A stretch of DNA of 64,000 nt, from sequence record OQ834936. The stretch is one strand, 5' to 3'. The notes beneath the pieces were generated by a model. That model had not been told where the DNA came from and did no database searches. It saw only the letters and a list, made by a program, of their open reading frames with translations. How positions within the stretch are numbered: the stretch's first letter is position 1; each line of letters starts with the position of its first letter. Positions 20,124-41,109 of this stretch are shown piece by piece. This DNA comes from Shigella phage Henu12. The translations under genes were made by a program, and so were the position numbers.

Positions 20124-20135
20124 TAGTTATTCAAA

Positions 20136-24529: not shown

Positions 24530-25026
24530 TCATAAGTTTCTCCGTGATTTGCAAACTCTCTGTGGAGTTCTTCTCTTTTCTTTCTAATTGCTTCTTTGGC
24601 ATCATCAACGTTATCAAACAGACCAAGGAAATGTGTTACACCGTGAACCATAATCCTTGCTCTCCACTTCTGTGAAGCTTTGTTGAATGATACACCTTTT
24701 ACACCAGATGTATTGTTGGAGTGTATTTTTCTATTCCAACAATTTTCAGCTTGAGTGCAAACTCTCAAGTTCATTCTTCGGTTGTCATCAGTAATTCCGT
24801 TACGATGGTCTACACGGTCTGGTAAGAACCCCTCTGTGTAAAGAATGGCTAAATCATGAGCCATGTATGATTTTCTCTTTATGGTAATCCTGATATAACC
24901 CCTTTTATGGGGTGTTCCAGCAACTGAACCAATGACTGTCCTATTAGCCGATTTCTTCAACCAAGTAAAGACCCCTGTTTCGGGGTCATAGTGTAGATAT
25001 TCTTTAAGAATCTGCCGAGTTAACAT
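24526..25026 (-). CDS. HNH homing endonuclease with AP2-like DNA-binding domain
   Basis: Motifs YDPETGVFTW, VDHRNGITDDNRRMNLRVCTQAENCWN and a C-terminal AP2-like block; paralogue of the 34605-35120 gene. Start set at internal Met (track 25062). Confidence 0.65.
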   Translation of the reverse strand: MLTRQILKEYLHYDPETGVFTWLKKSANRTVIGSVAGTPHKRGYIRITIKRKSYMAHDLAILYTEGFLPDRVDHRNGITDDNRRMNLRVCTQAENCWNRKIHSNNTSGVKGVSFNKASQKWRARIMVHGVTHFLGLFDNVDDAKEAIRKKREELHREFANHGETYE

Positions 25027-26077
25027 TTGGTGTCCACCCATACTTATCAAAAGTGAAATCATCTTTCTTATTTCTTTCCTGATAAGCTAAGAAAAAGTGT
25101 TGCTGCATTAACTCTAAAGGTGTTCTGGTAATTGTCTGACCATCCCATGAAACATAAGTGTAAGAGTCTTTCTTAGCATACAGTTCATAAATTGCATCAA
25201 GACATTCTTTGTAAGTAGTTTTACCTTCAAGAGCTTTCATTACTGCAACTTTACCAGCACCCTTTAAACCGAAGTAGTTATCTGCGTTATCACCAGCTAC
25301 GGCTTGGTAGCAGAGGAATTTAAATCCTACTCCAACTGTCTTCTTAGCTTTTGGTGTAGATTTTATTGGGCAATCCCAAATTTCACCAACGTTATTATCA
25401 GCGATAAAAATCAATGGGGCTTTCTCATAAGTCATATCAATGCAGTAAGTACCTTCAGCTTGTCGAAGGTCTTTGTCAATACTCATGAGGGCAGCTTTTT
25501 TACCCATCTTTTCAGCTTTTGCAATAACGATAGAGTCAGCTTCAAACCCATCAAGAATCAGCTTAAACTCTGGTCGTGACAGAAGATACTCACGACAAGC
25601 AACTAGGTGTGTAGGTGTTACAGCTTCTTTTCTGTTACCTTGGTATTGGTGTTCAAGACCTTTGATATCCTTGTGTTTGTGAACACCTTTCTCAGTAAGG
25701 TAACCCATCCATTTGCGTTCTTTACCAACGACTTTCAACCACTCCTGAAGAACTTGCTGTGTAGCCATAATTGCTTCAGCTTCACTTTTAGCTTCTTTCC
25801 AAGTCTGTCTTTCCCATTCATCTTCATCAAAGTCAAGTCCTAACTCTTCAGTTAAAACTCTTTGGTCAGACAACCATTGTGCTGCCAGTTTTGCACTATC
25901 AAAAGCATCGGATTCTTCAGCAGTGATTTTATTCACATACTTGTACTTTGCTTTTTCAACTACACAAGCACCTTTGTAAGCAATGCTATCAGAGTCAATA
26001 AAGACGTGTGTAACGCTCTCTGGGAGCTTTGTTAAGGTGTATTGTTCCATTGTACTCTCCATACGAAAAAGCCCCAT
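25004..26077 (-). CDS. 5'-3' exonuclease / flap endonuclease (RNase H-like)
   Basis: Motif AVAGDNADNYFGLKGAGKVAVMKALEG resembles the 5'-nuclease helix-3-turn-helix signature. Confidence 0.65.
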   Translation of the reverse strand: MGLFRMESTMEQYTLTKLPESVTHVFIDSDSIAYKGACVVEKAKYKYVNKITAEESDAFDSAKLAAQWLSDQRVLTEELGLDFDEDEWERQTWKEAKSEAEAIMATQQVLQEWLKVVGKERKWMGYLTEKGVHKHKDIKGLEHQYQGNRKEAVTPTHLVACREYLLSRPEFKLILDGFEADSIVIAKAEKMGKKAALMSIDKDLRQAEGTYCIDMTYEKAPLIFIADNNVGEIWDCPIKSTPKAKKTVGVGFKFLCYQAVAGDNADNYFGLKGAGKVAVMKALEGKTTYKECLDAIYELYAKKDSYTYVSWDGQTITRTPLELMQQHFFLAYQERNKKDDFTFDKYGWTPNVNSADS

Positions 26078-26096
26078 ACGTCTGTACAGGGCTTTG
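26066..26096 (-). terminator. putative intrinsic terminator (AAGCCC...GGGCUU plus U5)
   Basis: Hairpin with 14-nt loop and U-tract downstream of the SSB candidate. Confidence 0.45.
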
Positions 26097-26112
26097 TAGT
26101 AGTTACTGACTA

Positions 26113-26973
26113 TTACTCGTCGTCAGTTTCGAAATCATCTTCGTCGTCATCATCTGGGTTTGGCAGGTCGTCGTCATCGTCATCACCACCTTTACCTTCA
26201 TCACCAGAATCTTTTGCATCTTCTTCAGTGATTTCACCGTTGTCTTCAACACCTGCAAGACCAAGCATTGCCAGTTCATCTTCATCCAGTTCAGTCTCAG
26301 TAGCACCACCAGTACCACCAGTGTAAGGAACCAGAGTATCAATGATAAATTGTTCCTGAATTGGCTTGGTCAGAACGTTACCTTCAAATGTGTAGAAGTG
26401 AGTCGCCAGAATCACACTACCAAATGAACCGTTACCAACTGCAATATCTGGATGAATTACATCGTAAGTCTTATCATCATCGTGCTTATCAGATTTTGCT
26501 GCCTTGATTTTCTTCATAGGCTGCTTAACTGCAACACGCTTACCGTTGATTTCTTCAACCAGCATTACAGGGAAACTCTGTTTTGCTGACCACACAGCAC
26601 CGTCTTTATATGCTGCTGAACGGCTAACCTTCAGGATGTGATAGGTGTCAGCTTCAAACGGAGGCTCACAACCAAACTTCTCTTCGAAGTCATCTGCATC
26701 AACAGCCTCTGTAGTAACTTTATCCCAACCTTCAGGACTCTTTTTAGACTTGGTGAACTCTTTAAAGAGCTTGTTACCATCTTTTGCCAGAATTGAAACG
26801 CTGTAGTTACAATCTTTGCCCGGAAAATGCTTATCCACAGATTTACCCTTTTGAGGACGTGGAATAGTGTTCAGGTAATAGAACCAAACATCTTTCAGCA
26901 GGTAACGAAGAGTCTCACGTTCTTGACCATTGTACTTCTCTACCGGAGCTTTCATTTTAACAACTTTAGACAT
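26113..26973 (-). CDS. putative single-stranded DNA-binding protein (T7 gp2.5-like, acidic C-terminal tail)
   Basis: C-terminus GDDDDDDLPNPDDDDEDDFETDDE; sits among T7-type replication genes. Confidence 0.5.
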   Translation of the reverse strand: MSKVVKMKAPVEKYNGQERETLRYLLKDVWFYYLNTIPRPQKGKSVDKHFPGKDCNYSVSILAKDGNKLFKEFTKSKKSPEGWDKVTTEAVDADDFEEKFGCEPPFEADTYHILKVSRSAAYKDGAVWSAKQSFPVMLVEEINGKRVAVKQPMKKIKAAKSDKHDDDKTYDVIHPDIAVGNGSFGSVILATHFYTFEGNVLTKPIQEQFIIDTLVPYTGGTGGATETELDEDELAMLGLAGVEDNGEITEEDAKDSGDEGKGGDDDDDDLPNPDDDDEDDFETDDE

Positions 26974-27024
26974 TTTAATACCTCTTTCTCAAATTAACTT
27001 TCAACTCAACTATCAAGGAGTACA

Positions 27025-27053
27025 ATCTTACAGACTTCGTACTCCCTTGTCAA
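27025..27053 (-). promoter_or_regulatory. sigma70-like promoter TTGACAAGG-N-TAAGAT upstream of the SSB candidate
   Basis: -35 at 27053-27048, 17-nt spacer, -10 at 27030-27025. Confidence 0.45.
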
Positions 27054-27058
27054 ACACT

Positions 27059-27196
27059 TTAAGCAGATTTCTTAGCTGCTTTACGAGCCGTCTTACCTGT
27101 ACGAACTCGCTTCTGTACATAGTGTTCAGCAGATTTACCAGCAGTTGCTTTCATGGAATCGCCAAATACTTTCTCGAATGCTTTAGAATGTTTCAT
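27059..27196 (-). CDS. small basic protein (45 aa, MKHSKAFEKVFGDSMKATAGKSAEHYVQKRVRTGKTARKAAKKSA)
   Basis: Hand translation; GGAGAG RBS; ATGA overlap with the upstream stop at 27193. Confidence 0.4.
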   Translation of the reverse strand: MKHSKAFEKVFGDSMKATAGKSAEHYVQKRVRTGKTARKAAKKSA

Positions 27197-27474
27197 GAAT
27201 CTCTCCGATATATTTCATATTCAAAATGTTTATTAGTCAAGGTAAAGGTGTAAACTGTAGATAACCCATCAATCGCTAATGCAAATTGCTCAACATTATC
27301 TTTTGATAAGTGTTCAAACTTTACTTCATGTCCCTTGTTGATGAGTACTTTACCGAACTGCTCTATCTTAGTCAAGCACTCTTTTACAAATTTTTCTCTG
27401 CTTTTTTCTGAATAGAAGGGTTCAAAACCCTCCTTCAGATAACTATCAATCAGTTTCGAACGGACAGTCATCAT
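27193..27474 (-). CDS. hypothetical protein (93 aa)
   Basis: ORF track. Confidence 0.5.
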   Translation of the reverse strand: MMTVRSKLIDSYLKEGFEPFYSEKSREKFVKECLTKIEQFGKVLINKGHEVKFEHLSKDNVEQFALAIDGLSTVYTFTLTNKHFEYEIYRRDS

Positions 27475-29437
27475 TATCCTCGTTAATCACAGGTGGAATG
27501 GTGGAACTTTCACGTTGTTCTTGTGTGTAAATCTCTCCAGATTCACGGTCAAAATCAACATCTTCATAGTGTGGCATAGAGTCATCGTAATGGTCTTCAG
27601 CCTCACCAATACCAAACTGCTGACGAATATTCTCTGCTGCACCATCAATATCAACACCACATCCAGCAGCCTTTACAAGACGACCTGTATCTGGATTATA
27701 CCAAGTGTGACCAGCAATACCAGTTGACTTACCATGACGGCGACATTTTGTTAGCTTGATTTTTGTCAAGTTCTTTTTAACAGGGTCTGGGTCAACCTTG
27801 TTACGCATAAGCAAAATGTTGTTCATGGAAATCTGGAAGTATGCACCAGAACCCTTGATATCTTCTTCAGAAATATCACCACCTTCAGAGTTGGCCTTTT
27901 GACCACCTGCACTCTTACGAACGTGACATACGTTTACCTGAGCATACTGATAACGCTTACAGCGACGAAGTAACTCAGACAGAACTTCTTCTTCATCTGT
28001 ATCAGAGCGTGACAGTGCCAATGTAATAGGGTCAAGGATGATAATCTTACAATCGAGACTGTTAACCAGATAGTCAACAAACTCCAGCAGGTTATCTTGG
28101 TCAATTGCCCCTTGGTGGTCTACGATGTGAATACGACGACCTTTTGACAACTCAGCATGTGCAACCTTAATCTCATCCCAATTACGCTCATCGTAAGGAA
28201 TCTCTGAAATCTGCTTACTAAGATGGATTGCACAGAGCATTTCCATAAGTTCTTCGTAAGTATCTTCTACAGGAATTACACCGATGTTGTACTCAGTATC
28301 TTTCCATGCTTTGTAAATCATCTCACGAGTATATGCAGATTTACCTACAGATGAAGGTGCAGCAAGGGTTGTAATCTCACCTAAACCATACCCGCCATAA
28401 GTCAGCTTATTCAAATCCCCGAAAGAATCTGGGAAAGGAATTAAAGGAATCTGACCACGATTCTTCATAGCATCGAAACCATCTGCAAAGTTCTTGATAC
28501 CAGCAGGGCAGTAACGAGGTGCATTGTAGATTCGTTGTTTAAATCCTTCTAAGACTGTATCTTTGTCTTTGAAGAACTTAGTCCACCACTCACTAAGGTC
28601 TTTAATACCTTCAGGATACTGGAATAGTCTTACTTTCTCAATAGGTAAGATACCAGCAGCTTCCTTAGTTGCTTTAGCCCCTGCTTCATCATTATCAAAG
28701 CATAGGTAAATCTCATCAAAGGAAGTAATATACTGATAGTTCTCTTTGATAGACTTAACATTAGCACCAGATGGTACAGAAACGTGGCAGTAATTCTTAC
28801 GTCTAGACTTATCTTTAATTGCTAAAGAAGTCATGTAGATTGCTGTAGCACATTCCATCTCACCTTCCCAGATGAAAAGACGGTTACCACCTTCTGGAGC
28901 AATCCATGAACCGAACATAGCCAGTTCACCTTTAATATCTCCGACACCACCAGAAAAGTCTTTCAACTTCCCACGTAAGTGCTCTTTGTGATAGTCATCT
29001 GGATATTTGTGACGAACACGATAACCTACATGTTGCAACTTACCATCTTCATCCTTTTTGTATGTTGGATAGAAATGTGCATCAATATCACCGTTATCAT
29101 CAATATCAACTTTAATACCGAGACGCTCAAGGACTTTTGCAGGAATCTTCCTATCTTTTAAATCCATTGCTTCTAGGTTTTCTTTCACATCATCCAAATC
29201 CATACCACGAAATGTACGGTTTTTATTCTCTGAACCTGAAGTATGAGTACTCACAATCTGCCCTTTATCAAAATCCCACTCTGGAAAACCTTTTCCACAA
29301 CTGAAACATGTCATTGAATATGAACCGTCATCATGACGATATATAGAACCTGCATCTGAAGATAAACATTGAGGGCGTGGACATGCACAGTGGCCTACAA
29401 ATGTTCCAGCATCTTTCAGTTTTCTCTGTTTAGCCAT
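27446..29437 (-). CDS. DNA primase-helicase (T7 gp4-like)
   Basis: N-terminal zinc-binding CxxC...CxxC; C-terminal Walker A (SSVGKSAYT) helicase domain. Confidence 0.85.
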   Translation of the reverse strand: MAKQRKLKDAGTFVGHCACPRPQCLSSDAGSIYRHDDGSYSMTCFSCGKGFPEWDFDKGQIVSTHTSGSENKNRTFRGMDLDDVKENLEAMDLKDRKIPAKVLERLGIKVDIDDNGDIDAHFYPTYKKDEDGKLQHVGYRVRHKYPDDYHKEHLRGKLKDFSGGVGDIKGELAMFGSWIAPEGGNRLFIWEGEMECATAIYMTSLAIKDKSRRKNYCHVSVPSGANVKSIKENYQYITSFDEIYLCFDNDEAGAKATKEAAGILPIEKVRLFQYPEGIKDLSEWWTKFFKDKDTVLEGFKQRIYNAPRYCPAGIKNFADGFDAMKNRGQIPLIPFPDSFGDLNKLTYGGYGLGEITTLAAPSSVGKSAYTREMIYKAWKDTEYNIGVIPVEDTYEELMEMLCAIHLSKQISEIPYDERNWDEIKVAHAELSKGRRIHIVDHQGAIDQDNLLEFVDYLVNSLDCKIIILDPITLALSRSDTDEEEVLSELLRRCKRYQYAQVNVCHVRKSAGGQKANSEGGDISEEDIKGSGAYFQISMNNILLMRNKVDPDPVKKNLTKIKLTKCRRHGKSTGIAGHTWYNPDTGRLVKAAGCGVDIDGAAENIRQQFGIGEAEDHYDDSMPHYEDVDFDRESGEIYTQEQRESSTIPPVINEDNDDCPFETD

Positions 29438-29630
29438 TCACACCTCTTCGTTGTAGTTCTGCCTTAAGACCGTTTTCAATCTTATCAAGCTCATGGATTT
29501 CTTCTGCAATCTCTTTCCTTCTTGAAGCGACCCTTTCAAGTCGCTCCATCATAACTTCTTTGGAAAGAGATGAGAGTTCCACTGTACGGTGGTCAATTAC
29601 TTTAAAGTTATTATCTCTCATCTTCAACAC
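29430..29630 (-). CDS. small coiled-coil protein (66 aa)
   Basis: ORF track. Confidence 0.4.
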   Translation of the reverse strand: MLKMRDNNFKVIDHRTVELSSLSKEVMMERLERVASRRKEIAEEIHELDKIENGLKAELQRRGVNG

Positions 29631-29633
29631 CTT

Positions 29634-30374
29634 TTATAGATTGATAATGGTTTTAAGTTTACTCTCTAACTCTTCCATCGTTCCGTTATTCTGGATAATA
29701 TCACGGGAGAAGTTAGTGGAGATACCTTTTTCAGAACTGTGTGACGCAACCTGAATAGCATTGTTTCTGGTCACCTCAATTATCTGACTATCATAACTCT
29801 GAAGAAACTCTGCTTCAAGGTCAAATCGTAAATCACATATTAGAGCAATACCTATATGAGACTTGTTATGACATTCTCCAAAGAATGATTCCATTCTCTC
29901 AGCAAGGTCTCTTATCCAGAACTTCTCACCTAACACTTTACGGACAACTTCACTACCCCATATCTGCTGGATTTGGCGTGATGAGAATATGTACTCTTCT
30001 TTTAAACCGAGCCTTGTTTTGAAAGTCGGTTTAGCCACCTTCTTAATTTCAGTGATAAGTTTATCTGCAATTTCACCACACAATTTATCATCACTGTGGA
30101 TACCTTTGTCTTTCATAATTTTGTAGAAAGCCCACTTAACTTTTTGTAATACTTCTGAGAATGTCAAGTCAAACTTTTTAGGAGTTTCCTTTGTTGCCCC
30201 ATACAGGTCTTGCCAATCCAAATCAAAGATGAATCCAGCAGTTGCTTTTAAGTTGTCTGCAAACGCAAAAACTTTAACAGTATAGCCAGAGTCAATCAAG
30301 AGGTTTTTCACAAGTGTGCATGATGTATCTTTTCCAGAGCGAGCCTTTCCAGTGAATGCAATTACTGATTTCAT
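29634..30374 (-). CDS. deoxynucleoside monophosphate kinase (T4 gene 1-like)
   Basis: P-loop AFTGKARSGKDT and C-terminal NNGTMEELESKLKTI resemble T4 dNMP kinase. Confidence 0.7.
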   Translation of the reverse strand: MKSVIAFTGKARSGKDTSCTLVKNLLIDSGYTVKVFAFADNLKATAGFIFDLDWQDLYGATKETPKKFDLTFSEVLQKVKWAFYKIMKDKGIHSDDKLCGEIADKLITEIKKVAKPTFKTRLGLKEEYIFSSRQIQQIWGSEVVRKVLGEKFWIRDLAERMESFFGECHNKSHIGIALICDLRFDLEAEFLQSYDSQIIEVTRNNAIQVASHSSEKGISTNFSRDIIQNNGTMEELESKLKTIINL

Positions 30375-30384
30375 TGTGTATCTC

Positions 30385-30418
30385 CATAATAAAAAGCCCC
30401 CAATTAAGGAGGCTTAAA
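30385..30418 (-). terminator. putative intrinsic terminator (AGCCUCC...GGGGGCU plus U-tract)
   Basis: 7-bp stem with one G-U pair, followed by UUUUAUUAU. Confidence 0.45.
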
Positions 30419-30430
30419 AGTTAATAACTG

Positions 30431-31225
30431 TTACTGCAAGCGAGCACCAGACAGTTCACGTTCAGCCATGCTGTCTAACTGTTCAACAAACTCATCACCA
30501 AAGTTGATTGCCAGCTTAGTACTCAGTACTGCTGCACCAGTTTGCGTGAAGACTTCGTTAAGTGCTTTTGAGTGAGCACCTTGAGAGATTTCTTCAACAA
30601 ACGCAGGGTCTGCTTCAAGCATCTTAGAAACCTCTAAGAGAGCATGGATACCCATAATGCTGAAGATTGCATTGAGCATTGAAGTTAATTGAACCTGAAC
30701 AGGATTCATTTCAATATCTTCACTAATCTCAACAAGACGCTTCATAGTCTCTTCAGTGAGAGTCAGAACTCGTTCAGAGATTTCTTCAAAGCCCCAATCC
30801 AGTTTTGCATAACGTGGAGCTTGGTCACTCATACGTTTTTCAAGTGAAGCCATTACAGATGCAACAGATGCACAGATACACTTCATGATTTCTGCATCAG
30901 ACATGTTATCAAGTTCTTTGATACCAGCTTCAGTCATCTGGATATAACCACCAGAATACATCTCTGCAAATACGTATGCAGCAAAGGCATCAACACCAAT
31001 TGCAATGGTTTTCAAAGCAACTGTCTGGTTACTCAGAAGATATTCAACCTCTTTACGGAAATCTTCGTCATTCTCTACAGCGTTTTTTACAACACGCAGA
31101 GATTCAGGGATAAATTTTCCTGACAGTGAGTTGCTACGCATAATGATAGCAAGAGTCTCAACAGTGTTCAGCATGAATGCTTCGTCAATACCTTTTTCTT
31201 CCAGAATCTCATTTACAGTTTTCAT
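30431..31225 (-). CDS. hypothetical protein (264 aa)
   Basis: ORF track. Confidence 0.5.
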   Translation of the reverse strand: MKTVNEILEEKGIDEAFMLNTVETLAIIMRSNSLSGKFIPESLRVVKNAVENDEDFRKEVEYLLSNQTVALKTIAIGVDAFAAYVFAEMYSGGYIQMTEAGIKELDNMSDAEIMKCICASVASVMASLEKRMSDQAPRYAKLDWGFEEISERVLTLTEETMKRLVEISEDIEMNPVQVQLTSMLNAIFSIMGIHALLEVSKMLEADPAFVEEISQGAHSKALNEVFTQTGAAVLSTKLAINFGDEFVEQLDSMAERELSGARLQ

Positions 31226-31649
31226 CTTTAATCTCTCTCATTTTGTTAATAGTAAGTCGTGATAATCTTAAGCTTTCTTGTGAAGAGAAGTCAAGTCCTT
31301 TTTCAGACCGTGGGAAGTAATTTCTGTCCCACGTATTCTCTGCATCCTGAAGCAGTTGGGATAGACTATCTAAGTCCGTTCCATTTTGCAACTTATTTTT
31401 TAAGGTATCTATCAAAAAGATTGTGTCTTTCGCTTTACGTCTTTCTGAAGATATCTCTTTCATGTGCTCAAATACAGAACACTTTAAACCTTCGTCGTAT
31501 CCACTTGATAGTTCTATCTCATGCTGAACATCAACCATTCGACGATGTTGATAAGCATACTCCTTCTGAGCCTCGATGTAAAGTGCTTCAACTCTTTCTA
31601 AAGCTTGGACAAGGTTATTGATATCTGGGTGAACGTACATCCTCTGCAT
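31209..31649 (-). CDS. hypothetical protein (146 aa)
   Basis: ORF track; first gene of the minus block after the divergent region. Confidence 0.5.
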   Translation of the reverse strand: MQRMYVHPDINNLVQALERVEALYIEAQKEYAYQHRRMVDVQHEIELSSGYDEGLKCSVFEHMKEISSERRKAKDTIFLIDTLKNKLQNGTDLDSLSQLLQDAENTWDRNYFPRSEKGLDFSSQESLRLSRLTINKMREIKDENCK

Positions 31650-31908
31650 GATTGCCTCTGTTAAGTATCTATAAAGATTTTAATCTCTTATCTTTATGTA
31701 TGTTATACATATAACTTTAAAGCTTTTTAAAAGCTATTAAAAATCTTTTAAGACTTTTAAAGAAACTGTATAGTTAATCTATAAAGGGAGTCTATTAAGA
31801 TAAAACCCACTTCGAAAAGACTAACACCTTGTCAAGTAGTTTGTCAACTTGCTTTTTGCAGAAAATTGCTGTAGGGTATTATCCAGAATGATTTGAGAGG
31901 GAGTAAAA
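31650..31908. promoter_or_regulatory. AT-rich divergent intergenic region with short repeats and two TTGTCAA copies
   Basis: Strand-switch point between the minus and plus blocks; near-palindrome AGCTTTTTAAAAGCT. Confidence 0.5.
31855..31882 (+). promoter_or_regulatory. candidate sigma70-like promoter TTTGCA-N16-TATTAT for the DNA polymerase gene
   Basis: Read on plus strand; followed by GAGGGAG RBS and ATG at 31909. Confidence 0.4.
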
Positions 31909-34608
31909 ATGGACAATGTAGATTTCGAAAAATTACATTTGGTTGGTGATACAGAAACTGATGGGTTGCTCCTTGAGTTTACAAAAGCACACGTAATGGC
32001 TTTCGCAGACTATAAAGATGACAGTGATGAACCTGCTGTGTGGGTTTTCACTGATGAGCCTATTCTTGGTCACAAGTATACAAAATACATCAAAGGTGGT
32101 CTGCGTGAAGGTGTTGAGTTTGCACTGAAAGCTAAACGTCTTTGTATCCACAATGGTCTTGGTTATGACTGGTGGGTGTTTAATCACATTGCACCTGACC
32201 TGTGGAACTTTGAGAATCCTAAGTGTAAGCCTTGGAGTGACTTCTTTCAGGATTCACTTATCCAATCTCGCGTACAGTGGATGGATAGACCTACACCAAA
32301 AGGTTACAAAGGTGCTCATGGTTTGGCTGCATGGGGTGCTCGTGTTGGTGTTCGTAAACCAGAGATTGAAGAGTGGGGTGTATGGAATGCAGAGATTCTT
32401 ACTCGTGTTGTAGAAGATATTAAGATTAACGCCAAAACTAAACGTGCTCTTGATAATGAGTACCTTAAGCTTAAGAAGTGTGGTGTTGACACTTATGAAA
32501 CCTATATGCGAGCTAAAGAAACATCTTTCTGGATGAGCCAGCAAGCTATCAACGGTTGGAAAGCTGATGTAGAACTTATGCAGTTCCATGTTAAAGAACT
32601 TGACAAGTTAACTAATGAGTTAGCTGCTGAGGTTGAGCCACACCTGCCACCAACTATCAAGACAAAAGGTAAGGTCACAGGTGAAGAGTTTGCTAAGTCT
32701 TGGAATGAGTATGTGGATACATTTGGTCACGTTGACGGCTTAAAAAGGATTACCAAGTACCCTAAGACAAAGTATCGTGAACAGATGCGTGAAGGTGAGT
32801 TGAAGCAATACCCTATCAAGCCATATGGAAAGCCAACTACAAAGATTTTTAACGTTGAGAAACGTAACTGCTACACACCAACTAATACGGTTACCAAAGA
32901 AGAGTACCCTGAAGGTTTCGTAGCAATGAAAGATGCTCGTGCAGTTTGTAATGAACTGAATGAGAAGATTGGGAAGAAGTGTAAAGATTGGAAACCAGTT
33001 AAGACTGTGAAGATTGTGAAGTACTATAATGTGCATGTTGTAAATCACTTCGAGTTGGAGTCAAGTCGCTACACTGGTTTGATTGATGCACCATTCACAC
33101 CAATTGAGTTTGAAGTTTCACGAATGACTCAGGTAGCTGTGGTGAAGGATTACTTAAAATCTGTTGGTTGGATTCCTGATGATTGGAACTACAAAAAAGA
33201 TTCTGATGGTCGTCCGGTTAAGGTTTGCAGATTCAAAGACAACAAAAAGATGATTCGCAAACATCCTAAGTGGGATGAGATGGTTGAGCGTTGTGGGTTG
33301 AACTATATTGAGCATGAAGGTGTCTATTACATCGAGCATAACTGGTCTGTTAAGAAGTACACAGATGTGCTTGAGCCTTGCTTGATTAGGACTTCACCAA
33401 AGCTTACAGAGTCTTCTTATGATACAATCGAAGGTGAGCTTGGACAGAAGATTGCGAAGTACTATACTTTGATGCACCGACGCAGGACTATTGAGAACTC
33501 AAAGGATGATGAGAAAGGTTGGCTGAACCAGATTCGTCCAGATGGTCGTTTGAGTGCAGGTGCAATGGTGTTTGGTACTTCTACTGGACGTATGACTCAG
33601 TATGGTATTGTAAACGTACCTTCTGGTGCTGCTGTTTACGGTGAGCCAATGAGGGCAGTGTGGATTTGTGAAGAGGGAACCAACGTAGTATCTGTTGATA
33701 TGAACTCTGCACAGCTTGTACTACTCTGTAACTTCATGGGTGATAAAGACTTCACCAAAGCGGTAACAGAGGGTAAAGAAGAGATTGAGTTTGTTCGTCA
33801 AGAGGATGGAAGATACTACTGCAAACACTTTGACCAGTATCTGAATCCAGAGATTGACAAGTATCTGCGTTATGACTCTGAAAACGATTTGTACGTAGTT
33901 TACTCAGGGACTGATGCTCACACTCTGAACAGTATCTACTTCAGCCTTAATGATGAGCAAGATATCTTGACTTGTCGTGCTACTCAGGATGAGAATCTTC
34001 TTCATGAGATTAGCAAGGGACGTAAGAAAGCTAAGAATGGTATCTATGCCCTGTTGTTCGGTGCAGGTGATGAGAAGTTTGCTAAAACAATTAAAGCAGC
34101 AACTACTCAGGAAGGTGCATTGACTAAGCAGACTTACTTTGTGCGCTTGCCGAAGATTAAGAAACTGTTAGACAACTTGGAAGCTGATTTCAAAGCAACT
34201 AAGAAAGCACTTGAAGAGGTGTTTGGTAAAACTGCTGCGATAGCTAAAGGTGGTTTTGTGAAGGTTGCTGGAGCTTGGCTGTGGTGTAAGTCTCCACACA
34301 AGCTGTTAAATTACCTTTTGATGGGTTCAGAAAGTCAAGTCCAGAATGAAGCAATTAACCTTGCATGTCGTCGTATGATTGATGAAGGTTTGATGAAGTT
34401 GAATGGTCGTAAACCAGCTATTGGCGCTCGCTTACTCTGTGCTTACCACGACGAAACAAGTTGGGAATGTCCAGAGCACATGACAGCAGATGTGAAAGCA
34501 GTAACTGACTGGTATTATGGTCAAGCATCTAAGAACCTTGGACTAAGGAAAGAAACCTTGGTAACAGGTACTGGTAAAGTTGGTAAGAGCTGGTATGAGG
34601 TACATTGA
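31909..34608 (+). CDS. DNA polymerase, family A (T7 gp5-like) with 3'-5' exonuclease domain
   Basis: DTETDG exo motif; HGLAAWGARVG, YALLFGAGDEK and HDE blocks resemble T7 DNA polymerase. Confidence 0.9.
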   Translation: MDNVDFEKLHLVGDTETDGLLLEFTKAHVMAFADYKDDSDEPAVWVFTDEPILGHKYTKYIKGGLREGVEFALKAKRLCIHNGLGYDWWVFNHIAPDLWNFENPKCKPWSDFFQDSLIQSRVQWMDRPTPKGYKGAHGLAAWGARVGVRKPEIEEWGVWNAEILTRVVEDIKINAKTKRALDNEYLKLKKCGVDTYETYMRAKETSFWMSQQAINGWKADVELMQFHVKELDKLTNELAAEVEPHLPPTIKTKGKVTGEEFAKSWNEYVDTFGHVDGLKRITKYPKTKYREQMREGELKQYPIKPYGKPTTKIFNVEKRNCYTPTNTVTKEEYPEGFVAMKDARAVCNELNEKIGKKCKDWKPVKTVKIVKYYNVHVVNHFELESSRYTGLIDAPFTPIEFEVSRMTQVAVVKDYLKSVGWIPDDWNYKKDSDGRPVKVCRFKDNKKMIRKHPKWDEMVERCGLNYIEHEGVYYIEHNWSVKKYTDVLEPCLIRTSPKLTESSYDTIEGELGQKIAKYYTLMHRRRTIENSKDDEKGWLNQIRPDGRLSAGAMVFGTSTGRMTQYGIVNVPSGAAVYGEPMRAVWICEEGTNVVSVDMNSAQLVLLCNFMGDKDFTKAVTEGKEEIEFVRQEDGRYYCKHFDQYLNPEIDKYLRYDSENDLYVVYSGTDAHTLNSIYFSLNDEQDILTCRATQDENLLHEISKGRKKAKNGIYALLFGAGDEKFAKTIKAATTQEGALTKQTYFVRLPKIKKLLDNLEADFKATKKALEEVFGKTAAIAKGGFVKVAGAWLWCKSPHKLLNYLLMGSESQVQNEAINLACRRMIDEGLMKLNGRKPAIGARLLCAYHDETSWECPEHMTADVKAVTDWYYGQASKNLGLRKETLVTGTGKVGKSWYEVH

Positions 34609-35120
34609 TGCGAGATTGTGGATTCACACATGAACAGTTAAAGTCTTGGTTAAACTATGACCCCGAAACAGGGGTCTTAACGTGGATTGGCAGGCCTCCA
34701 CATAGTAGTAGGGTGGTTATTGGGAGCCAAGCCGGAGCAATCAAGCGCACAAGGTCTGGTGTGTATATGCACACACAGATTTTAGGATACAGGACAGGCA
34801 ATCACCGAATTGCTTGGTTCTGGATGACAGGCAAGTGGCCTGATAAACACATTGACCACAAAGATGGAGATGGTTTGAATAACGCTTGGGACAATCTCAG
34901 GGAGGCCACAAAAGAACAGAACATGTCTAATAGGAGACAACCCAGAACATCAAAAAACTTAAAAGGTACAAGTAGAAGCAAGTCTGGTAAGTGGATAGCC
35001 CAGATTAACCATAATGGCAAGACTATACATATAGGTACATACACAACAGAAGAAGAAGCCCATAAAGCTTACTGTGAAGCTGCTATTAAACTCCACGGAG
35101 AGTTTGCAAAACTAAGTTGA
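34605..35120 (+). CDS. HNH homing endonuclease with AP2-like domain
   Basis: YDPETGVLTW, IDHKDGDGLNNAWDNLREATKEQN and AP2-like C-terminus; ATGA overlap with the polymerase stop. Confidence 0.7.
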   Translation: MMRDCGFTHEQLKSWLNYDPETGVLTWIGRPPHSSRVVIGSQAGAIKRTRSGVYMHTQILGYRTGNHRIAWFWMTGKWPDKHIDHKDGDGLNNAWDNLREATKEQNMSNRRQPRTSKNLKGTSRSKSGKWIAQINHNGKTIHIGTYTTEEEAHKAYCEAAIKLHGEFAKLS

Positions 35121-35171
35121 CAAGGTGCTCATGGAAGAGTACCTTATACTATATCTTGTATAGGAGGTTAC

Positions 35172-35390
35172 ATGACACTTTCAGACGTTATCCAACAACT
35201 TCAGGTAAGTGGTTACACTCAAGAGCAAATTGATGAGCTAAACATCATATCCATGCCAAACCGTTTTGTTAAAGCTTTTGGGTTAGAAGTTGTAAGGATG
35301 GCACATATACTCATTGTGGATGGTCTTCTTATCAAAGACAGAACTGGTGCTTTGAAAGGTAAGAGAATCGATATCACGGAGATATTATGA
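35172..35390 (+). CDS. hypothetical protein (72 aa)
   Basis: ORF track; AGGAGG RBS. Confidence 0.45.
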   Translation: MTLSDVIQQLQVSGYTQEQIDELNIISMPNRFVKAFGLEVVRMAHILIVDGLLIKDRTGALKGKRIDITEIL

Positions 35391-35596
35391 GTCACCGTGG
35401 TAGAACTCATCTTGCCATGATGCAAGGGGCTTCAAAAGAGACTATCAAGAATCGTAAGAAAACTCTTTTTGACAGAATGAATAGACTCATTGACAATGCA
35501 AGTCTACCTAACTCTGAAAAGGTTTTCTTGAAAGGGAATCTGAAGAGTATTGCACAGGAACTTATTGACATTGAATTTTGGAGACACCAAAAATGA
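35387..35596 (+). CDS. hypothetical protein (69 aa)
   Basis: ORF track. Confidence 0.45.
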   Translation: MSHRGRTHLAMMQGASKETIKNRKKTLFDRMNRLIDNASLPNSEKVFLKGNLKSIAQELIDIEFWRHQK

Positions 35597-35796
35597 CTTA
35601 TGAAGAAGCTATTGAAGCCATGAAGAGTGGTCACAAAGTACGTAATGAAAATTTCACATCTGATGAGTTCTTCGAAATGAAAGATGGGAAGATTGTCTGT
35701 GAAATGGGTTACCCAATGGCTACATGGTATAAGGGAGAACCTTGGCAGAAAACTGGATGGAGTATCTTTAATGAAATTTTACACCATTTGGGGTAG
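35578..35796 (+). CDS. hypothetical protein (72 aa)
   Basis: ORF track; preferred over the overlapping 35684-35914 frame. Confidence 0.4.
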   Translation: METPKMTYEEAIEAMKSGHKVRNENFTSDEFFEMKDGKIVCEMGYPMATWYKGEPWQKTGWSIFNEILHHLG

Positions 35797-35903
35797 AGTC
35801 GGTAAAGGTTATGACTGGATTCTCCTTAAAACAAATGTTAAAAGTAATGAGATAGTTTACTACAAAGTCTATTACCATAAAACTTTTAGAGAGGTAGAGT
35901 ATC

Positions 35904-36155
35904 GTGAGCAGTAGAGAAGAAGAAGCTTTAGCAATCTTCAAGAATGAAGATAAATCAATATCTTTTGTATCAGAGGCTTGGTGCAGGGGCTTAGGTTATG
36001 ATTGGTATCTCTTCTTATGTGCTAAGAAAGATGTTAAACCAGTTGATGAAACCCGATTCAAAGAACTGTATACTGTCTGCCAAGAGGGTTATGAAGAACA
36101 CTACGAAGGCTCTTTGAATCCTGTAAATTCAAAAGCTTCAGATTTATTTTATTGA
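35904..36155 (+). CDS. hypothetical protein (83 aa)
   Basis: ORF track. Confidence 0.45.
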   Translation: MSSREEEALAIFKNEDKSISFVSEAWCRGLGYDWYLFLCAKKDVKPVDETRFKELYTVCQEGYEEHYEGSLNPVNSKASDLFY

Positions 36156-36165
36156 GAGGTCTAAA

Positions 36166-36402
36166 ATGTTAAAATTATTGATACCAGCTTTAGTAGTTCT
36201 ACTAGTTGGGTGTAACCCTTCTTACGAGAATAAGGATGCTTCTTACAGACTTCCTCCAGAAATGCAAGACTGCAAGATTTATAAGCTTAATGGTGATGCA
36301 ACTAGCAGGGATGTTATTGTAGTTCGCTGTCCAAATTCTCAGACGACTACTTCTTACAAGTATGGAAAGAATAGTCAGTCACATACTACTGTTTTTGATT
36401 GA
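36166..36402 (+). CDS. putative lipoprotein (signal peptide ending LLVGC)
   Basis: Lipobox-like LVGC after a hydrophobic signal. Confidence 0.5.
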   Translation: MLKLLIPALVVLLVGCNPSYENKDASYRLPPEMQDCKIYKLNGDATSRDVIVVRCPNSQTTTSYKYGKNSQSHTTVFD

Positions 36403-36412
36403 GGATATTAAT

Positions 36413-36619
36413 ATGCAGGTTCTGGTAAATTTTATCTATAAGTATGAAAACATCTTCAGCACCATGACTGAAGGTCAACGCAATCCAGTTATCCCACGGG
36501 AAGGGGAGATTGTTGAGATTAATGACTGGAACCACAGAGTTGCAGAGGTCAAGCATAAACTTAAAGATGGTTATGACCACCAAGTTGTAAATGTGTATTT
36601 AGAAGGTAAGTGGCAATGA
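36413..36619 (+). CDS. hypothetical protein (68 aa)
   Basis: Start set at internal Met with GAGGA RBS (track start 36362). Confidence 0.4.
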   Translation: MQVLVNFIYKYENIFSTMTEGQRNPVIPREGEIVEINDWNHRVAEVKHKLKDGYDHQVVNVYLEGKWQ

Positions 36620-36710
36620 GCATCTTACATATCATCTCTGAAGATTTTGGAGGGTGCTCTTGGCACTCATTTTTCACAAAAGGTTGTCTAGCTTGTGAGG
36701 CACGTAAAAA

Positions 36711-37811
36711 ATGACAATTCTGTACAAACAAAACAAAGATGGTTCTTTCAACGTTTGGTCATGTGTTGCTGTAGGTGATAAAGTTGTTACAACCTACGGT
36801 AAAGAAAATGGCAAGATGATGTTCGAAGAGTACACAGCAGAACCAAAGAACATTGGTAAGAAGAATGAGCGTAATGCTGAACAGCAAGCTCTCTTTGAAG
36901 TTGCTGCTAAGTACAAGAAGCAGGTTGACCGTAAAGGGTATGCTTACACAAAGTCTGAAGCAGAGAATGTTGAGAAGGTTGGTGTACAGCTTGCTCAGGA
37001 TGCTTCCAAGATAAGTCACAAGAAGTATCTGGTATTCCCTGCCGATGCTCAACCTAAACTTGATGGTGTTCGTTGCAGGATTTCAAGAGATGCTGACTCA
37101 GAAAGTTTTACGGCATATTCTCGTGAGAACACGGTATACAACATTCCTGTAGAGTTGATTCCTGATGTTCTTCTTATGCTGAAACTGCACAAAGATGTTG
37201 AGGATTTCGATGGTGAGATTTATGCTCATGGTTGGGACTTGGAAGATATTGTATCTATGATTAAGAATGCTGACAATCCAGACCGTCACCTTCTTAAGTT
37301 CTACTGGTATGATATCTGTGACAAGACTAAATCTTGGCCTGAGCGTCGTGAAGTTATTGAGACTTCACCTTTAAATGACCTGAGAAATGGCTGTAGAGTT
37401 GTCCCTGTTAAATCTCGTCGTGTTAACTCTTGGGAAGAATTTGACACTGCTCATGATAAGTGGGTTGAAGCGAAGTTTGAAGGGGCAATGTACCGTTCAA
37501 TCTCCCCAGATTCATTCTATGAGTGTGGTCACCGTTCATACTTCTTGATTAAACATAAGAAGATGCACACCAAAGAGTTCACAGTAACGGGTGTGAAGAC
37601 TGATAAGCGTGGTCATGGCAAGTTCGTTGTAGAGACTCTTCCTAACGTCTTTGTAGATGTTTCATGGAAAACTACACACGAGAAGAAAAAGTATCTTGCT
37701 GAACATCCTGAAGAGTTTATCGGGAAGCCTTTAACGGTTCAGTTCCAGAAGATGACTCGTAAGGGTTCTTTACAGTTCCCTGTTGGGCTAGTAATTCGAG
37801 ACTATGAATAG
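36711..37811 (+). CDS. ATP-dependent DNA ligase
   Basis: Adenylation motif I KLDGVR and overall size (366 aa) typical of phage ligases. Confidence 0.75.
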   Translation: MTILYKQNKDGSFNVWSCVAVGDKVVTTYGKENGKMMFEEYTAEPKNIGKKNERNAEQQALFEVAAKYKKQVDRKGYAYTKSEAENVEKVGVQLAQDASKISHKKYLVFPADAQPKLDGVRCRISRDADSESFTAYSRENTVYNIPVELIPDVLLMLKLHKDVEDFDGEIYAHGWDLEDIVSMIKNADNPDRHLLKFYWYDICDKTKSWPERREVIETSPLNDLRNGCRVVPVKSRRVNSWEEFDTAHDKWVEAKFEGAMYRSISPDSFYECGHRSYFLIKHKKMHTKEFTVTGVKTDKRGHGKFVVETLPNVFVDVSWKTTHEKKKYLAEHPEEFIGKPLTVQFQKMTRKGSLQFPVGLVIRDYE

Positions 37812-41108: not shown

Positions 41109-41109
41109 T

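What the first reader, a model, noticed from the sequence alone, without database searches (positions are those of the whole stretch)
25004..37811. Mosaic replisome: T7-type replication proteins in a genome with T4-type rII and nucleotide-metabolism genes
Seen: family A polymerase with T7-like blocks, a gp4-like fused primase-helicase, an acidic-tailed SSB candidate, a 5'-3' exonuclease and an ATP ligase, alongside rIIA/rIIB, dNMP kinase, aerobic and anaerobic RNR, NrdH, DHFR and thymidylate synthase. Inference: a modular mix of T7-like replication with T4-like metabolic and membrane-protection genes; the combination resembles Felix-O1-type phages from memory.
Basis: partly seen in the sequence, partly recalled or inferred. 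Interest (0 to 1): 0.35.

Follow-up and report, generated by a model that had tools for sequence, protein, structure and literature searches.

The report
T7-like replication genes in Felix-O1-like phage
The window comes from an already sequenced kind of Felix-O1-like (Mooglevirus) phage, whose T7-style DNA replication genes next to rII and nucleotide-synthesis genes were described in 2010; the one small addition is that a protein labelled "hypothetical" in every sampled relative is its T7 gp2.5-type single-stranded-DNA-binding protein.

Summary
The window is 96-99% identical to Shigella phage Henu11 and 94% identical to Citrobacter phage Michonne (Ounavirinae, Mooglevirus).

- **Primase-helicase:** 30% identical to T7 gp4 (E 1e-40).
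- **Polymerase:** T7 gp5 is the nearest solved structure (Foldseek 8e-30, against 5e-18 for Klenow).
- **Exonuclease:** falls in the same PHROG family as T7 gp6.
- **Ligase:** ATP-dependent, but no closer to T7 ligase than to ASFV or Chlorella virus ligases.
- **"T4-type" genes:** rIIA, rIIB and dNMP kinase are homologous to the T4 proteins. Thymidylate synthase (TS), DHFR and NrdD are no closer to T4 than to bacterial enzymes.

So the replisome is uniformly T7-like, and the mosaic lies at genome level. The 2010 Felix O1 genome paper already reported this.

The modest new points are the SSB assignment, an F-x-T-[E/D/A] motif (F-x-T-E in most) shared by the C-terminal tails of SSB and helicase, and a large folded polymerase insertion at the position I recall for T7's thioredoxin-binding loop.

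The parts
24526..25062 (-). HNH-AP2 homing endonuclease; its start overlaps the 3' end of the exonuclease gene. Mobile-element passenger, not part of the replisome.
   Evidence: Pfam HNH_3 at 5.9e-8 plus weak AP2. 35% identical to T7 gp3.8. Absent at this site in Michonne and present in Mushroom.
25004..26077 (-). T7 gp6-like 5'-3' exonuclease (FEN/PIN-like), 357 aa.
   Evidence: phrog_107 'exonuclease' at 5.8e-65. T7 gp6 falls in the same PHROG at 5e-79. blastp against gp6 gives 21% over 225 aa, E 4.5e-5. An H3TH-like stretch, AGDNADNYFGLKGAGKVAV, aligns with the Taq 5' nuclease. No Pfam hit.
26113..26973 (-). gp2.5-superfamily ssDNA-binding protein, 286 aa. An OB-fold core is followed by a ~60-residue tail that is 52% Asp/Glu and ends DDFETDDE.
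27193..27474 (-). 93-aa ORF of unknown function between the helicase and SSB genes.
   Evidence: phrog_4982, unknown function. Conserved at this position in relatives.
27446..29437 (-). T7 gp4-like bifunctional primase-helicase, 663 aa. It has a Cys4 zinc motif, a TOPRIM primase domain, an SF4 helicase domain, and an acidic tail ending CPFETD.
   Evidence: PDB 5ikn/6n7i (T7 gp4) at E 2.6e-38 over residues 151-594. blastp gives 30% over 440 aa, E 1e-40. Pfam Toprim_2 plus DnaB_C. phrog_239 is shared with gp4. Cys at 17/19, 24, 44 and 47. The Walker A sequence APSSVGKS aligns with T7 SGSGMGKS.
29634..30374 (-). T4 gp1-type deoxynucleoside monophosphate kinase, 246 aa.
   Evidence: Pfam DNMK PF21448 at 5e-20 over the full length. 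The only PDB hit is T4 dNMP kinase 1DEK, E 2.8e-4.
30431..31649 (-). Two conserved ORFs (264 aa and 146 aa) of unknown function, at the head of the leftward operon.
   Evidence: phrog_4251, labelled 'minor tail protein', and phrog_4039, unknown. No Pfam hits. The tail label is doubtful given the genomic position.
31650..31908 (.). Divergent intergenic region between the leftward operon (helicase/SSB/exonuclease) and the rightward operon (polymerase/ligase).
   Evidence: ORF orientation changes here, and GC skew flips sign here. Promoter-like hits in the whole scanned region 24000-38500 were at chance level.
31909..34608 (+). T7 gp5-like family A DNA polymerase with a 3'-5' proofreading domain, 899 aa. 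It carries large folded insertions at residues ~249-500 (thumb) and ~625-665 (fingers).
   Evidence: PF00476. Best PDB sequence hit is T7 gp5 at 1e-10, against 4e-4 for Taq. AF2 model has pLDDT 90.9. Foldseek ranks 1-27 are all T7 gp5 (8e-30 to 1.6e-22), with Klenow at 5e-18. Exo residues D14, E16, D87 and D170 are invariant. Motif B is R705/K709/Y713 (T7 R518/K522/Y526), and the protein ends in His899.
34605..35120 (+). HNH-AP2 homing endonuclease immediately downstream of the polymerase gene.
   Evidence: Pfam HNH_3 at 1.3e-14 plus AP2 at 1.9e-9. In some Felixounavirus genomes the polymerase match is in two pieces with an HNH gene under it.
35172..36619 (+). Run of about seven small ORFs (69-85 aa) of unknown function between the polymerase/HNH genes and the ligase gene.
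   Evidence: ORF list. All are 'hypothetical protein' in Michonne.
36711..37811 (+). ATP-dependent DNA ligase, 366 aa. It has nucleotidyltransferase and OB domains plus an N-terminal extension of ~95 aa.
   Evidence: Pfam DNA_ligase_A_M at 4.5e-9. KLDG motif at residue 116. phrog_114 is shared with T7 gp1.3. Nearest PDB sequences are ASFV ligase 6imj (2.5e-7) and Chlorella virus ligase. T7 ligase is not significant.
5966..9540 (-). rIIB (5966-7087) and rIIA (7168-9540) homologues.
   Evidence: blastp against T4: rIIB 39% over 277 aa, E 1e-59; rIIA 29% over 378 aa, E 9e-40.
14634..22370 (-). Ribonucleotide reductase cluster: NrdG 14634-15125, NrdD 16109-18250, NrdH-like redoxin 18493-18735, NrdB 18735-19808, NrdA 20136-22370.
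   Evidence: Pfam hits. CPQC redoxin ORF. NrdD matches T4 NrdD at 1.2e-84 and a 734-aa NrdD chain (9d3x) at 3.5e-84.
40563..42009 (+). DHFR (40563-41108) and thymidylate synthase (41110-42009).
   Evidence: Pfam DHFR_1. PDB searches show bacterial enzymes scoring equal to or better than the T4 enzymes.

Best explanation
The region is the DNA replication module of a known type of virulent myovirus (Ounavirinae, genus Mooglevirus; nearest relative Shigella phage Henu11). It encodes a complete minimal T7-style replisome.

Components and inferred roles:
- A single-polypeptide gp4-like primase-helicase unwinds the fork and lays down primers.
- A gp5-like family A polymerase with proofreading copies both strands.
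- A gp2.5-like SSB coats the lagging-strand template.
- A gp6-like 5'-3' exonuclease removes primers.
- An ATP-dependent ligase seals the nicks.

By analogy with T7, I infer that the acidic, aromatic-containing C-terminal tails of the helicase and the SSB dock on basic surfaces of the polymerase and so couple the parts. Both tails end in an F-x-T-[E/D/A] motif.

The module sits in a genome that also carries rIIA/rIIB and a large set of dNTP-supply genes: a T4 gp1-type dNMP kinase, class Ia and class III RNR, NrdH, DHFR and TS. Sequence and structure-prediction evidence shows the gene identities and homologies. The mechanism is inferred from T7 biochemistry.
For: **Genome identity**
- 94% identity over 100% of the region to Michonne.
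- 99%, 96% and 98% identity to Henu11 over the three window segments.
- Taxonomy comes from the database record.

**Primase-helicase**
- T7 gp4 structures at E 2.6e-38.
- 30% identity over 440 aa.
- Same PHROG as gp4.

**Polymerase**
- High-confidence model, pLDDT 90.9.
- The 27 best PDB matches are all T7 gp5, about 12 orders of magnitude in E-value ahead of Pol I.
- Exo and polymerase catalytic residues are invariant.

**SSB**
- 54 profile hits in 1.84 billion representatives. Of the 48 remote ones, 34 also match phrog_112 'Gp2.5-like', 6 match Pfam SBB_T7 and 6 match Enc34_ssDNA-bd.
- hhalign chain with probabilities 99.95% and 95.9%.

**Exonuclease**
- Same PHROG as T7 gp6, and blastp E 4.5e-5.

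**Tails**
- Helicase and SSB both end in F-x-T-[E/D/A] in all 8 Ounavirinae-like lineages examined.
- The x residue matches in some lineages: GFQTE/GFQTE in Arno162 and PFRTE/PFKTE in phiEa104.
- This parallels T7's ...DTDF and ...DGDF.

**Synteny**
- The order dNMP kinase - primase/helicase - SSB - exonuclease - GIY-YIG is conserved in divergent relatives.

**Prior literature**
- Whichard 2010 reached the same view for the polymerase, primase-helicase, ligase and exonuclease of Felix O1.
Against: - Identities to the T7 proteins are low: polymerase ~22%, exonuclease 21%. The SSB is detectable only through intermediates or by fold. Direct hhalign of the SSB family against gp2.5 gives only 18.7% probability.
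- The SSB model has low overall confidence: pLDDT 53 and pTM 0.54.
- The ligase shows no specific affinity to T7 ligase.
- The polymerase is 195 aa longer than gp5. It has a ~190-aa folded insertion at the place I recall for the T7 thioredoxin-binding loop, so its processivity mechanism may differ.
- In the Ounavirinae tails the aromatic residue is not the terminal residue, as it is in T7.
- No biochemical data were found for any Ounavirinae replication protein.
Confidence: 0.9

Rival explanations
1. A truly chimeric replisome. T7-type proteins would work together with T4-type replisome parts (clamp, clamp loader, gp32-type SSB, separate gp41/gp61 helicase and primase) encoded elsewhere in the phage.
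For: The genome does carry homologues of T4 proteins: rIIA, rIIB and dNMP kinase. About 25 kb of the ~89-kb genome lies outside the window and was not examined here.
Against: No T4-type replisome protein appears in the window ORFs that were scanned. None appears in the Michonne annotation covering 47.8 kb. The Felix O1 genome paper lists only a ligase, a polymerase and a primase/helicase as replication enzymes. All five functions needed for a minimal T7-style replisome are present and clustered.
Confidence: 0.03
2. The acidic-tailed 286-aa protein is not an SSB. It would be some other acidic protein, for example a DNA mimic or anti-restriction protein, or a scaffold, that merely contains a generic OB-like beta barrel.
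For: There are no Pfam or PDB sequence hits. Its own PHROG is 'unknown function'. The model confidence is low. Highly acidic phage proteins are often DNA mimics (my own knowledge).
Against: - Bridging homologues match Gp2.5-like profiles at up to 1e-17.
- The hhalign chain is significant.
- The gene sits between the primase-helicase and exonuclease genes in all relatives.
- The acidity is confined to a C-terminal tail with an invariant Phe, as in gp2.5.
Confidence: 0.06
3. The module was acquired recently by horizontal transfer from a T7-like podovirus into a T4-like backbone, so the mosaicism is recent.
For: Homing endonucleases flank the exonuclease and polymerase genes.
Against: - Identities to T7 are only 21-30%.
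- The module is syntenic across all Ounavirinae sampled, down to 43-64% protein identity.
- G+C content (0.37-0.42) is uniform across the module and its flanks.
- The structural genes are Felix-O1/rV5-like, not T4-like.
- Any exchange is therefore ancient and predates the subfamily.
Confidence: 0.03

Closest known systems
Replication/nucleotide-metabolism region of Ounavirinae phages (Shigella phage Henu11 OM953433; Citrobacter phages Michonne NC_028247, Mordin, Moogle; prototype Salmonella phage Felix O1 NC_005282)
   Same: The gene order and content are the same. Nucleotide identity is 94-99% to the Mooglevirus phages. The T7-like affinities of the polymerase and primase-helicase, the odd ligase affinities, the rII genes, the RNRs, DHFR, TS and dNMP kinase were all described for Felix O1.
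   Different: There are only small indels, mostly presence or absence of homing endonucleases. One example is the HNH gene at 24526-25062, which Michonne lacks. The SSB gene carries no functional annotation in any of the 40 sampled relatives.
Bacteriophage T7 replisome (gp4 primase-helicase, gp5 polymerase plus host thioredoxin, gp2.5 SSB, gp6 exonuclease, gp1.3 ligase)
   Same: The five functions match one for one. Primase and helicase are fused. The polymerase is family A with proofreading, with Tyr at the T7 Y526 position and a C-terminal His. The SSB has the gp2.5 fold. Both helicase and SSB carry acidic tails with an aromatic residue.
   Different: - Protein identity is only 21-30%.
- The polymerase is 899 aa against 704 aa, with a ~190-aa folded insertion at the position I recall for T7's thioredoxin-binding loop.
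- The tail motif is F-x-T-[E/D/A], not a terminal Phe.
- The ligase is not specifically T7-like.
- The genes lie in two divergent operons.
- There is no phage RNA polymerase.
- The virion is a myovirus.
Bacteriophage T4 rII, dNMP kinase and dNTP-synthesis genes
   Same: rIIA (29% identity), rIIB (39% identity) and dNMP kinase are homologous to the T4 proteins. The repertoire is the same: NrdAB, NrdDG, a redoxin, Frd and Td.
   Different: - No T4-type replisome proteins were found.
- TS and DHFR are at least as similar to bacterial enzymes as to T4's.
- NrdD carries an ATP-cone and is 713-736 aa long, against 605 aa for the T4 chain, whose match starts only after the cone.
- The genome adds NAMPT and PRPP synthetase genes. 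I recall no T4 counterpart, but I did not check this here.

Membership tests
Ounavirinae / Mooglevirus phage genome | High nucleotide identity and synteny with classified members across the genome | tested here: met
   Identity to Henu11 is 99%, 96% and 98% over the three window segments. Identity to Michonne, Moogle and Mordin is 94%. Gene order is the same. Only 64 kb of the ~89-kb genome could be compared.
T7 gp4-type bifunctional primase-helicase | One polypeptide with an N-terminal Cys4 zinc motif, a TOPRIM primase domain and a C-terminal SF4 (DnaB-like) helicase domain with a Walker A motif | tested here: met
   Cys at 17/19, 24, 44 and 47. Pfam Toprim_2 plus DnaB_C. A continuous alignment to T7 gp4 covers residues 151-594, E 2.6e-38, and includes APSSVGKS aligned to GSGMGKS.
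T7 gp4-type bifunctional primase-helicase | Acidic C-terminal tail with an aromatic residue that binds the polymerase | tested here: inconclusive
   The tail is present: net charge -12 over the last 40 residues, ending CPFETD, and the motif is conserved in 8 lineages. Binding to the polymerase is not testable with these tools.
T7 gp5-type family A DNA polymerase | Family A palm, fingers and thumb with motifs A, B and C, plus an N-terminal DEDD 3'-5' exonuclease domain | tested here: met
   PF00476. D14/E16/D87/D170, D597, R705/K709 and HDE848 are conserved. The best structural matches are T7 gp5.
T7 gp5-type family A DNA polymerase | Tyr at the O-helix position equivalent to T7 Y526 (Phe in Pol I) | tested here: met
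   Y713 aligns with T7 Y526 in the HMMER alignment and in motif B, RKKAKNGIYALLFG.
T7 gp5-type family A DNA polymerase | A ~76-residue thioredoxin-binding loop in the thumb, with host thioredoxin acting as processivity factor | tested here: inconclusive
   There is an insertion near the same position: window residues 289-475 correspond to T7 291-347 in blastp. It is about three times longer and is predicted to be a folded alpha/beta domain. No similarity to the T7 loop was detected. Thioredoxin dependence cannot be tested here.
gp2.5-like SSB / annealing protein superfamily (Pfam SBB_T7, Enc34_ssDNA-bd; phrog_112) | The gp2.5-type OB fold | tested here: met
gp2.5-like SSB / annealing protein superfamily (Pfam SBB_T7, Enc34_ssDNA-bd; phrog_112) | Sequence-profile membership | tested here: inconclusive
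   There is no direct Pfam or phrog_112 hit, and direct hhalign gives 18.7%. Transitive evidence is strong: A1-A3 at E 1.6e-37, A3-gp2.5 at probability 95.9%, and 34 of 48 intermediates in phrog_112. The protein belongs to the superfamily but falls outside the current family models.
gp2.5-like SSB / annealing protein superfamily (Pfam SBB_T7, Enc34_ssDNA-bd; phrog_112) | Acidic C-terminal tail with an essential aromatic residue; ssDNA binding | tested here: inconclusive
   The tail is present, with F281 invariant in 12 of 12 homologues. ssDNA binding and the essentiality of the Phe are not testable here.
T7 gp6 / FEN-type 5'-3' exonuclease | PIN-like nuclease domain plus an H3TH motif; homology to gp6 | tested here: met
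   phrog_107 is shared with gp6. blastp E 4.5e-5. An H3TH-like match to the Taq 5' nuclease. Individual metal-binding carboxylates were not mapped.
T7 gp1.3-type DNA ligase | Specific similarity to T7 ligase beyond the generic ATP-ligase nucleotidyltransferase and OB core | tested here: not met
   blastp against gp1.3 gives E 6. T7 ligase is absent from the PDB hits at E <= 0.1, and the best hits are ASFV and Chlorella virus ligases. Both proteins do fall in the broad phrog_114. It is an ATP-dependent ligase (KLDG at 116, PF01068), but it cannot be filed as T7-type.
T4 rIIA / rIIB | Sequence homology to T4 rIIA and rIIB, encoded by adjacent genes | tested here: met
   rIIA E 9e-40 and rIIB E 1e-59 against the T4 proteins. 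The two genes are adjacent at 5966-9540.

The most novel reading that the evidence does not exclude
Ounavirinae run a thioredoxin-independent variant of the T7 replisome. The polymerase carries a folded, net-basic ~190-250-aa thumb domain where, as I recall, T7 has its thioredoxin-binding loop. The helicase and the previously unannotated gp2.5-like SSB both dock on the polymerase through a shared, partly co-varying C-terminal F-x-T-[E/D/A] peptide. If so, this would be a second, independently evolved solution to polymerase-helicase-SSB coupling and to processivity.
Probability: 0.3. Interest if true: 0.35.

Novelty: already known. Interest (0 to 1): 0.13.

Why it matters
As stated, the finding matters little. 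The T7-like replication genes and the T4-like rII and nucleotide-metabolism genes of Felix-O1-type phages have been in the literature since 2010, and the window is nearly identical to deposited genomes.

The practical gain is an annotation fix. The gene family appears in 301 Ounavirinae records, and none of the 40 sampled records gives it a function (36 say 'hypothetical protein'). It can now be labelled as the gp2.5-like SSB, which completes the predicted replisome.

The shared F-x-T-[E/D/A] tails and the large thumb insertion give testable hypotheses. They address how a T7-style replisome is coupled and made processive in a group of phages widely used for Salmonella, E. coli and Shigella biocontrol.

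Tried and rejected
- **Direct searches on the SSB candidate.** Pfam, PDB sequence search and a per-member Pfam scan at E <= 10 gave nothing. Direct hhalign against T7 gp2.5 gave only 18.7% probability. The assignment needed fold comparison and a profile search for intermediates.
- **Pfam on the exonuclease.** No hits. PDB sequence search gave only a marginal match to the Taq 5' nuclease.
- **Ligase against T7 ligase.** Not significant. I dropped the 'T7-type' label for the ligase.
- **Test of 'T4-type' nucleotide metabolism.** For TS, DHFR and NrdD the PDB searches show no preference for T4 over bacterial homologues. I rejected specific T4 affinity for these.
- **Promoter and terminator scan, 24000-38500.** Counts equal chance (35 found against 34.5 expected; 10 against 9.3), so no regulatory claim is made.
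- **tRNA scan of the window.** None found. The Felix O1 paper reports 22 tRNAs for that genome, so any tRNA genes of this phage presumably lie outside the window.
- **Literature search for a prior SSB annotation in Felix-O1-like phages.** Nothing found. The supplement of Lopes et al. 2010 is not held, so prior detection cannot be excluded.
- **Scan of ten further unknown ORFs for T4-type replisome parts.** None found.

Full report
**What the window is**

Megablast of 25004-37811 against 50,697 phage records finds 279 matching records, essentially all of them Felix-O1-like myoviruses.
- Citrobacter phage Michonne (Ounavirinae, Mooglevirus) matches at 94.0% identity over 100% of the query.
- Shigella phage Henu11 matches at 96.3% over 91%.
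- The flanking 25-kb segments are 99.0% and 98.3% identical to Henu11.
- The annotated Michonne region has the same gene order as the window.

**Checking the observation**

The interval runs from the stop of a leftward exonuclease gene to the stop of a rightward ligase gene. The two operons diverge at 31650-31908, where GC skew also changes sign. Each named gene was tested.

*Primase-helicase (27446-29437, minus strand, 663 aa)*
- It aligns continuously with T7 gp4 structures over residues 151-594, E 2.6e-38.
- It is 30% identical to gp4 over 440 aa.
- It has Pfam Toprim_2 plus DnaB_C.
- It has an N-terminal four-cysteine motif.
- It shares phrog_239 with gp4.

*Polymerase (31909-34608, plus strand, 899 aa)*
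- It is family A (PF00476).
- By sequence, the best solved relative is T7 gp5 (1e-10), ahead of Taq (4e-4).
- An AlphaFold model built on 40 homologues is confident, with pLDDT 90.9.
- In Foldseek against the PDB, ranks 1-27 are all T7 DNA polymerase (8e-30 to 1.6e-22). Klenow, Bst and Taq start at 5e-18.
- The DEDD proofreading residues, motifs A to C and the C-terminal His are conserved.
- The O-helix carries Tyr713 at the position of T7 Tyr526.

*Exonuclease (25004-26077, minus strand)*
- It has no Pfam hit.
- It falls in phrog_107 together with T7 gp6.
- It gives blastp E 4.5e-5 against gp6.
- It carries an H3TH-like segment matching the Taq 5' nuclease.

*Ligase (36711-37811, plus strand)*
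- It is ATP-dependent, with PF01068 and KLDG at residue 116.

*dNMP kinase (29634-30374, minus strand)*
- It matches Pfam DNMK, and T4 gp1 (1DEK) is its only PDB hit.

*Genes outside the interval*
- rIIA and rIIB are homologous to the T4 proteins (E 9e-40 and 1e-59).
- NrdA, NrdB, NrdD, NrdG, an NrdH-like CPQC redoxin, DHFR and TS are all present.

**The acidic-tailed SSB candidate**

This was the only item that was not obvious. The 286-aa product of 26113-26973 (minus strand) has no Pfam or PDB sequence match, and its PHROG (3877) is 'unknown function'. tblastn finds it in 301 phage records, all Ounavirinae-like. Of 40 sampled records, 36 call it 'hypothetical protein' and four have no annotation there.

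Three independent lines place it in the gp2.5 superfamily.

2. *Bridging homologues.* A profile of 12 family members was searched against 1.84 billion representatives and found 54 proteins.
   - Of the 48 remote ones (mostly 200-245 aa), all match phrog_3877.
   - 34 also match phrog_112 'Gp2.5-like ssDNA binding protein' (best 1e-17).
   - 6 match Pfam SBB_T7 and 6 match Enc34_ssDNA-bd.
3. *Profile-profile comparison.* The family links to these intermediates at 99.95% probability (E 1.6e-37). The intermediates link to T7 gp2.5 at 95.9% (E 6e-9). The direct comparison is weak, at 18.7%.

The gene always sits between the primase-helicase and exonuclease genes.

**Tails**

The SSB tail (the last ~60 residues, 52% Asp/Glu) contains an invariant Phe and Thr (F281 and T283). 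The primase-helicase also ends in an acidic tail. In all eight Ounavirinae-like lineages examined, both tails end in F-x-T-[E/D/A].

| Lineage | Primase-helicase tail | SSB tail |
|---|---|---|
| Window | CPFETD | DDFETDDE |
| Mushroom | CPFETE | DFDTED |
| Arno162 | GSGFQTE | EEGFQTE |
| phiEa104 | IPFRTE | VPFKTE |
| Metagenomic relative L009 | CPFETE | APFETE |
| Metagenomic relative L010 | CPFETE | GFDTEDDDE |
| Metagenomic relative L008 | GFVTA | DFETE |
| T7 (for comparison) | DTDF | DGDF |

The eighth lineage, Michonne, has the same two tail endings as the window.

From established T7 biochemistry (my own knowledge), the gp4 and gp2.5 tails bind the same basic patches of gp5/thioredoxin. 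The shared motif here suggests the same arrangement. This is inference, not demonstration.

**Where the interpretation needs trimming**

- *The replisome is not mosaic.* All five replication functions are present, clustered and of the T7 kind. No T4-type replisome protein turned up in the window ORFs scanned, in the Michonne annotation, or in the Felix O1 paper's list of replication enzymes.
- *The ligase cannot be called T7-type.*
  - T7 ligase is not a significant match (blastp E 6; absent from PDB hits at E <= 0.1).
  - The best solved relatives are ASFV ligase (2.5e-7) and Chlorella virus ligase.
  - The Felix O1 paper likewise noted kinetoplastid ligases as the closest non-phage homologues.
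  - The ligase does share the broad phrog_114 with T7 gp1.3.
- *'T4-type nucleotide metabolism' holds as a repertoire, not as specific ancestry.*
  - TS scores better against E. coli TS (about 2e-48) than against T4 TS (8e-43).
  - DHFR scores about equally against bacterial and T4 enzymes.
  - NrdD scores equally against T4 NrdD and a 734-aa NrdD chain. It carries an ATP-cone and is 713-736 aa long, against 605 aa for the T4 chain, whose match starts only after the cone.

**Polymerase peculiarities**

- Against T7 gp5, the blastp alignments leave window residues 289-475 opposite T7 291-347. From memory, this is the region of T7's thioredoxin-binding loop.
- Against ~610-aa relatives, extra residues fall throughout 231-480 and in 641-700.
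- The model shows folded alpha/beta structure there, with pLDDT 73-89.
- Residues 231-500 are net +10, with 16 conserved basic positions between residues 253 and 517 in the long homologues.
- Motif A reads DMNSAQL. It has Gln where, by my hand comparison with motif sequences recalled from memory, T7 and Pol I have the steric-gate Glu.
- Phe717 aligns with T7 Tyr530 in the HMMER alignment.
- Whether the enzyme needs thioredoxin is unknown.

**Novelty**

Whichard et al. 2010 (PMC3185647) reported the following for Felix O1:
- The polymerase is most similar to those of the podoviruses PaP3, SP6, K1E, K1-5 and T7.
- The primase/helicase is most similar to those of T7-like phages.
- There is a 5'-exonuclease and an ATP ligase with eukaryote-like affinities.
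- The genome also encodes rIIA/B, aerobic and anaerobic RNR, DHFR, TS and dNMP kinase.

My tblastn of the polymerase reproduces that picture. The finding as written is therefore already known.

The SSB is not mentioned in that paper ('single-stranded' occurs zero times). I found no paper that annotates it, although not all of the literature is searchable. This is a modest annotation gain and not a new kind of system.

**Verdict**

I set interest at 0.13. The most novel reading still open is a thioredoxin-independent T7-style replisome coupled through F-x-T-[E/D/A] tails. I give it a probability of about 0.3 and moderate interest if true.

Noticed in passing
window 27446-27490 and 26113-26160 (C-terminal codons of the primase-helicase and SSB genes); L005, L006, L007, L008, L009, L010: Both proteins end in an acidic tail with a shared F-x-T-[E/D/A] motif in all 8 Ounavirinae-like lineages examined. 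The variable residue matches between the two proteins in some lineages: Q/Q in Arno162 and R/K in phiEa104. This parallels T7's ...DTDF and ...DGDF.
   Followed up: partly
window 31909-34608, polymerase residues ~249-500 and ~625-665: There are large folded insertions relative to T7 gp5 and to ~610-aa relatives. The first lies at the position I recall for T7's thioredoxin-binding loop and is net basic. Motif A has Gln602 where I expect the steric-gate Glu, and Phe717 aligns with T7 Tyr530.
   Followed up: partly
window 24526-25062 (-) and 34605-35120 (+): Two HNH-AP2 homing endonucleases, about 35% identical to T7 gp3.8, abut the exonuclease and polymerase genes. The first is absent in Michonne and present in Mushroom. 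In several Felixounavirus genomes the polymerase match is in two pieces with an HNH gene under it.
   Followed up: partly
window 24029-24529 (-): This 166-aa gene is annotated 'NAD synthetase' in relatives, and phrog_447 carries the same name. Its homologues in metagenomic relatives hit Pfam SegE_GIY-YIG, and it also matches a homing-endonuclease PHROG. The name is probably a propagated misannotation of a GIY-YIG endonuclease.
   Followed up: partly
window 10153-11979 (-) and 12024-12923 (-): Nicotinamide phosphoribosyltransferase and PRPP synthetase genes, which together supply NAD+ salvage. A PhageMaP preprint reports that two genes of the Felixounavirus Bas63 (g79 and g80), whose products synthesise NAD+, counter the Ec86 retron. 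I did not compare them with the window genes.
   Followed up: no
window 30431-31225 (-): A 264-aa ORF labelled 'minor tail protein' (phrog_4251 and the Michonne annotation) sits inside the early replication operon, between the dNMP kinase and polymerase genes. It has no Pfam support, so the label looks doubtful.
   Followed up: no
window 16109-18319 (-): The mechanical NrdD ORF starts at a TTG. The likely true start is the ATG at 18250, which gives 713 aa, as annotated in Michonne. The protein carries an N-terminal ATP-cone, whereas the T4 NrdD chain in the PDB is only 605 aa and its match starts after the cone.
   Followed up: partly
window 1670-2521 (-) and 4643-5338 (-): A phosphatase (phrog_335) and a polynucleotide kinase (phrog_3970) lie downstream of rIIB. 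They may form a T4 Pnk-like nucleic-acid end-repair function.
   Followed up: no
window ~31700 and ~42000: GC skew changes sign exactly where the direction of transcription changes (leftward before 31650, rightward from 31909 to 42009, then leftward again). The skew therefore tracks the coding strand.
   Followed up: no
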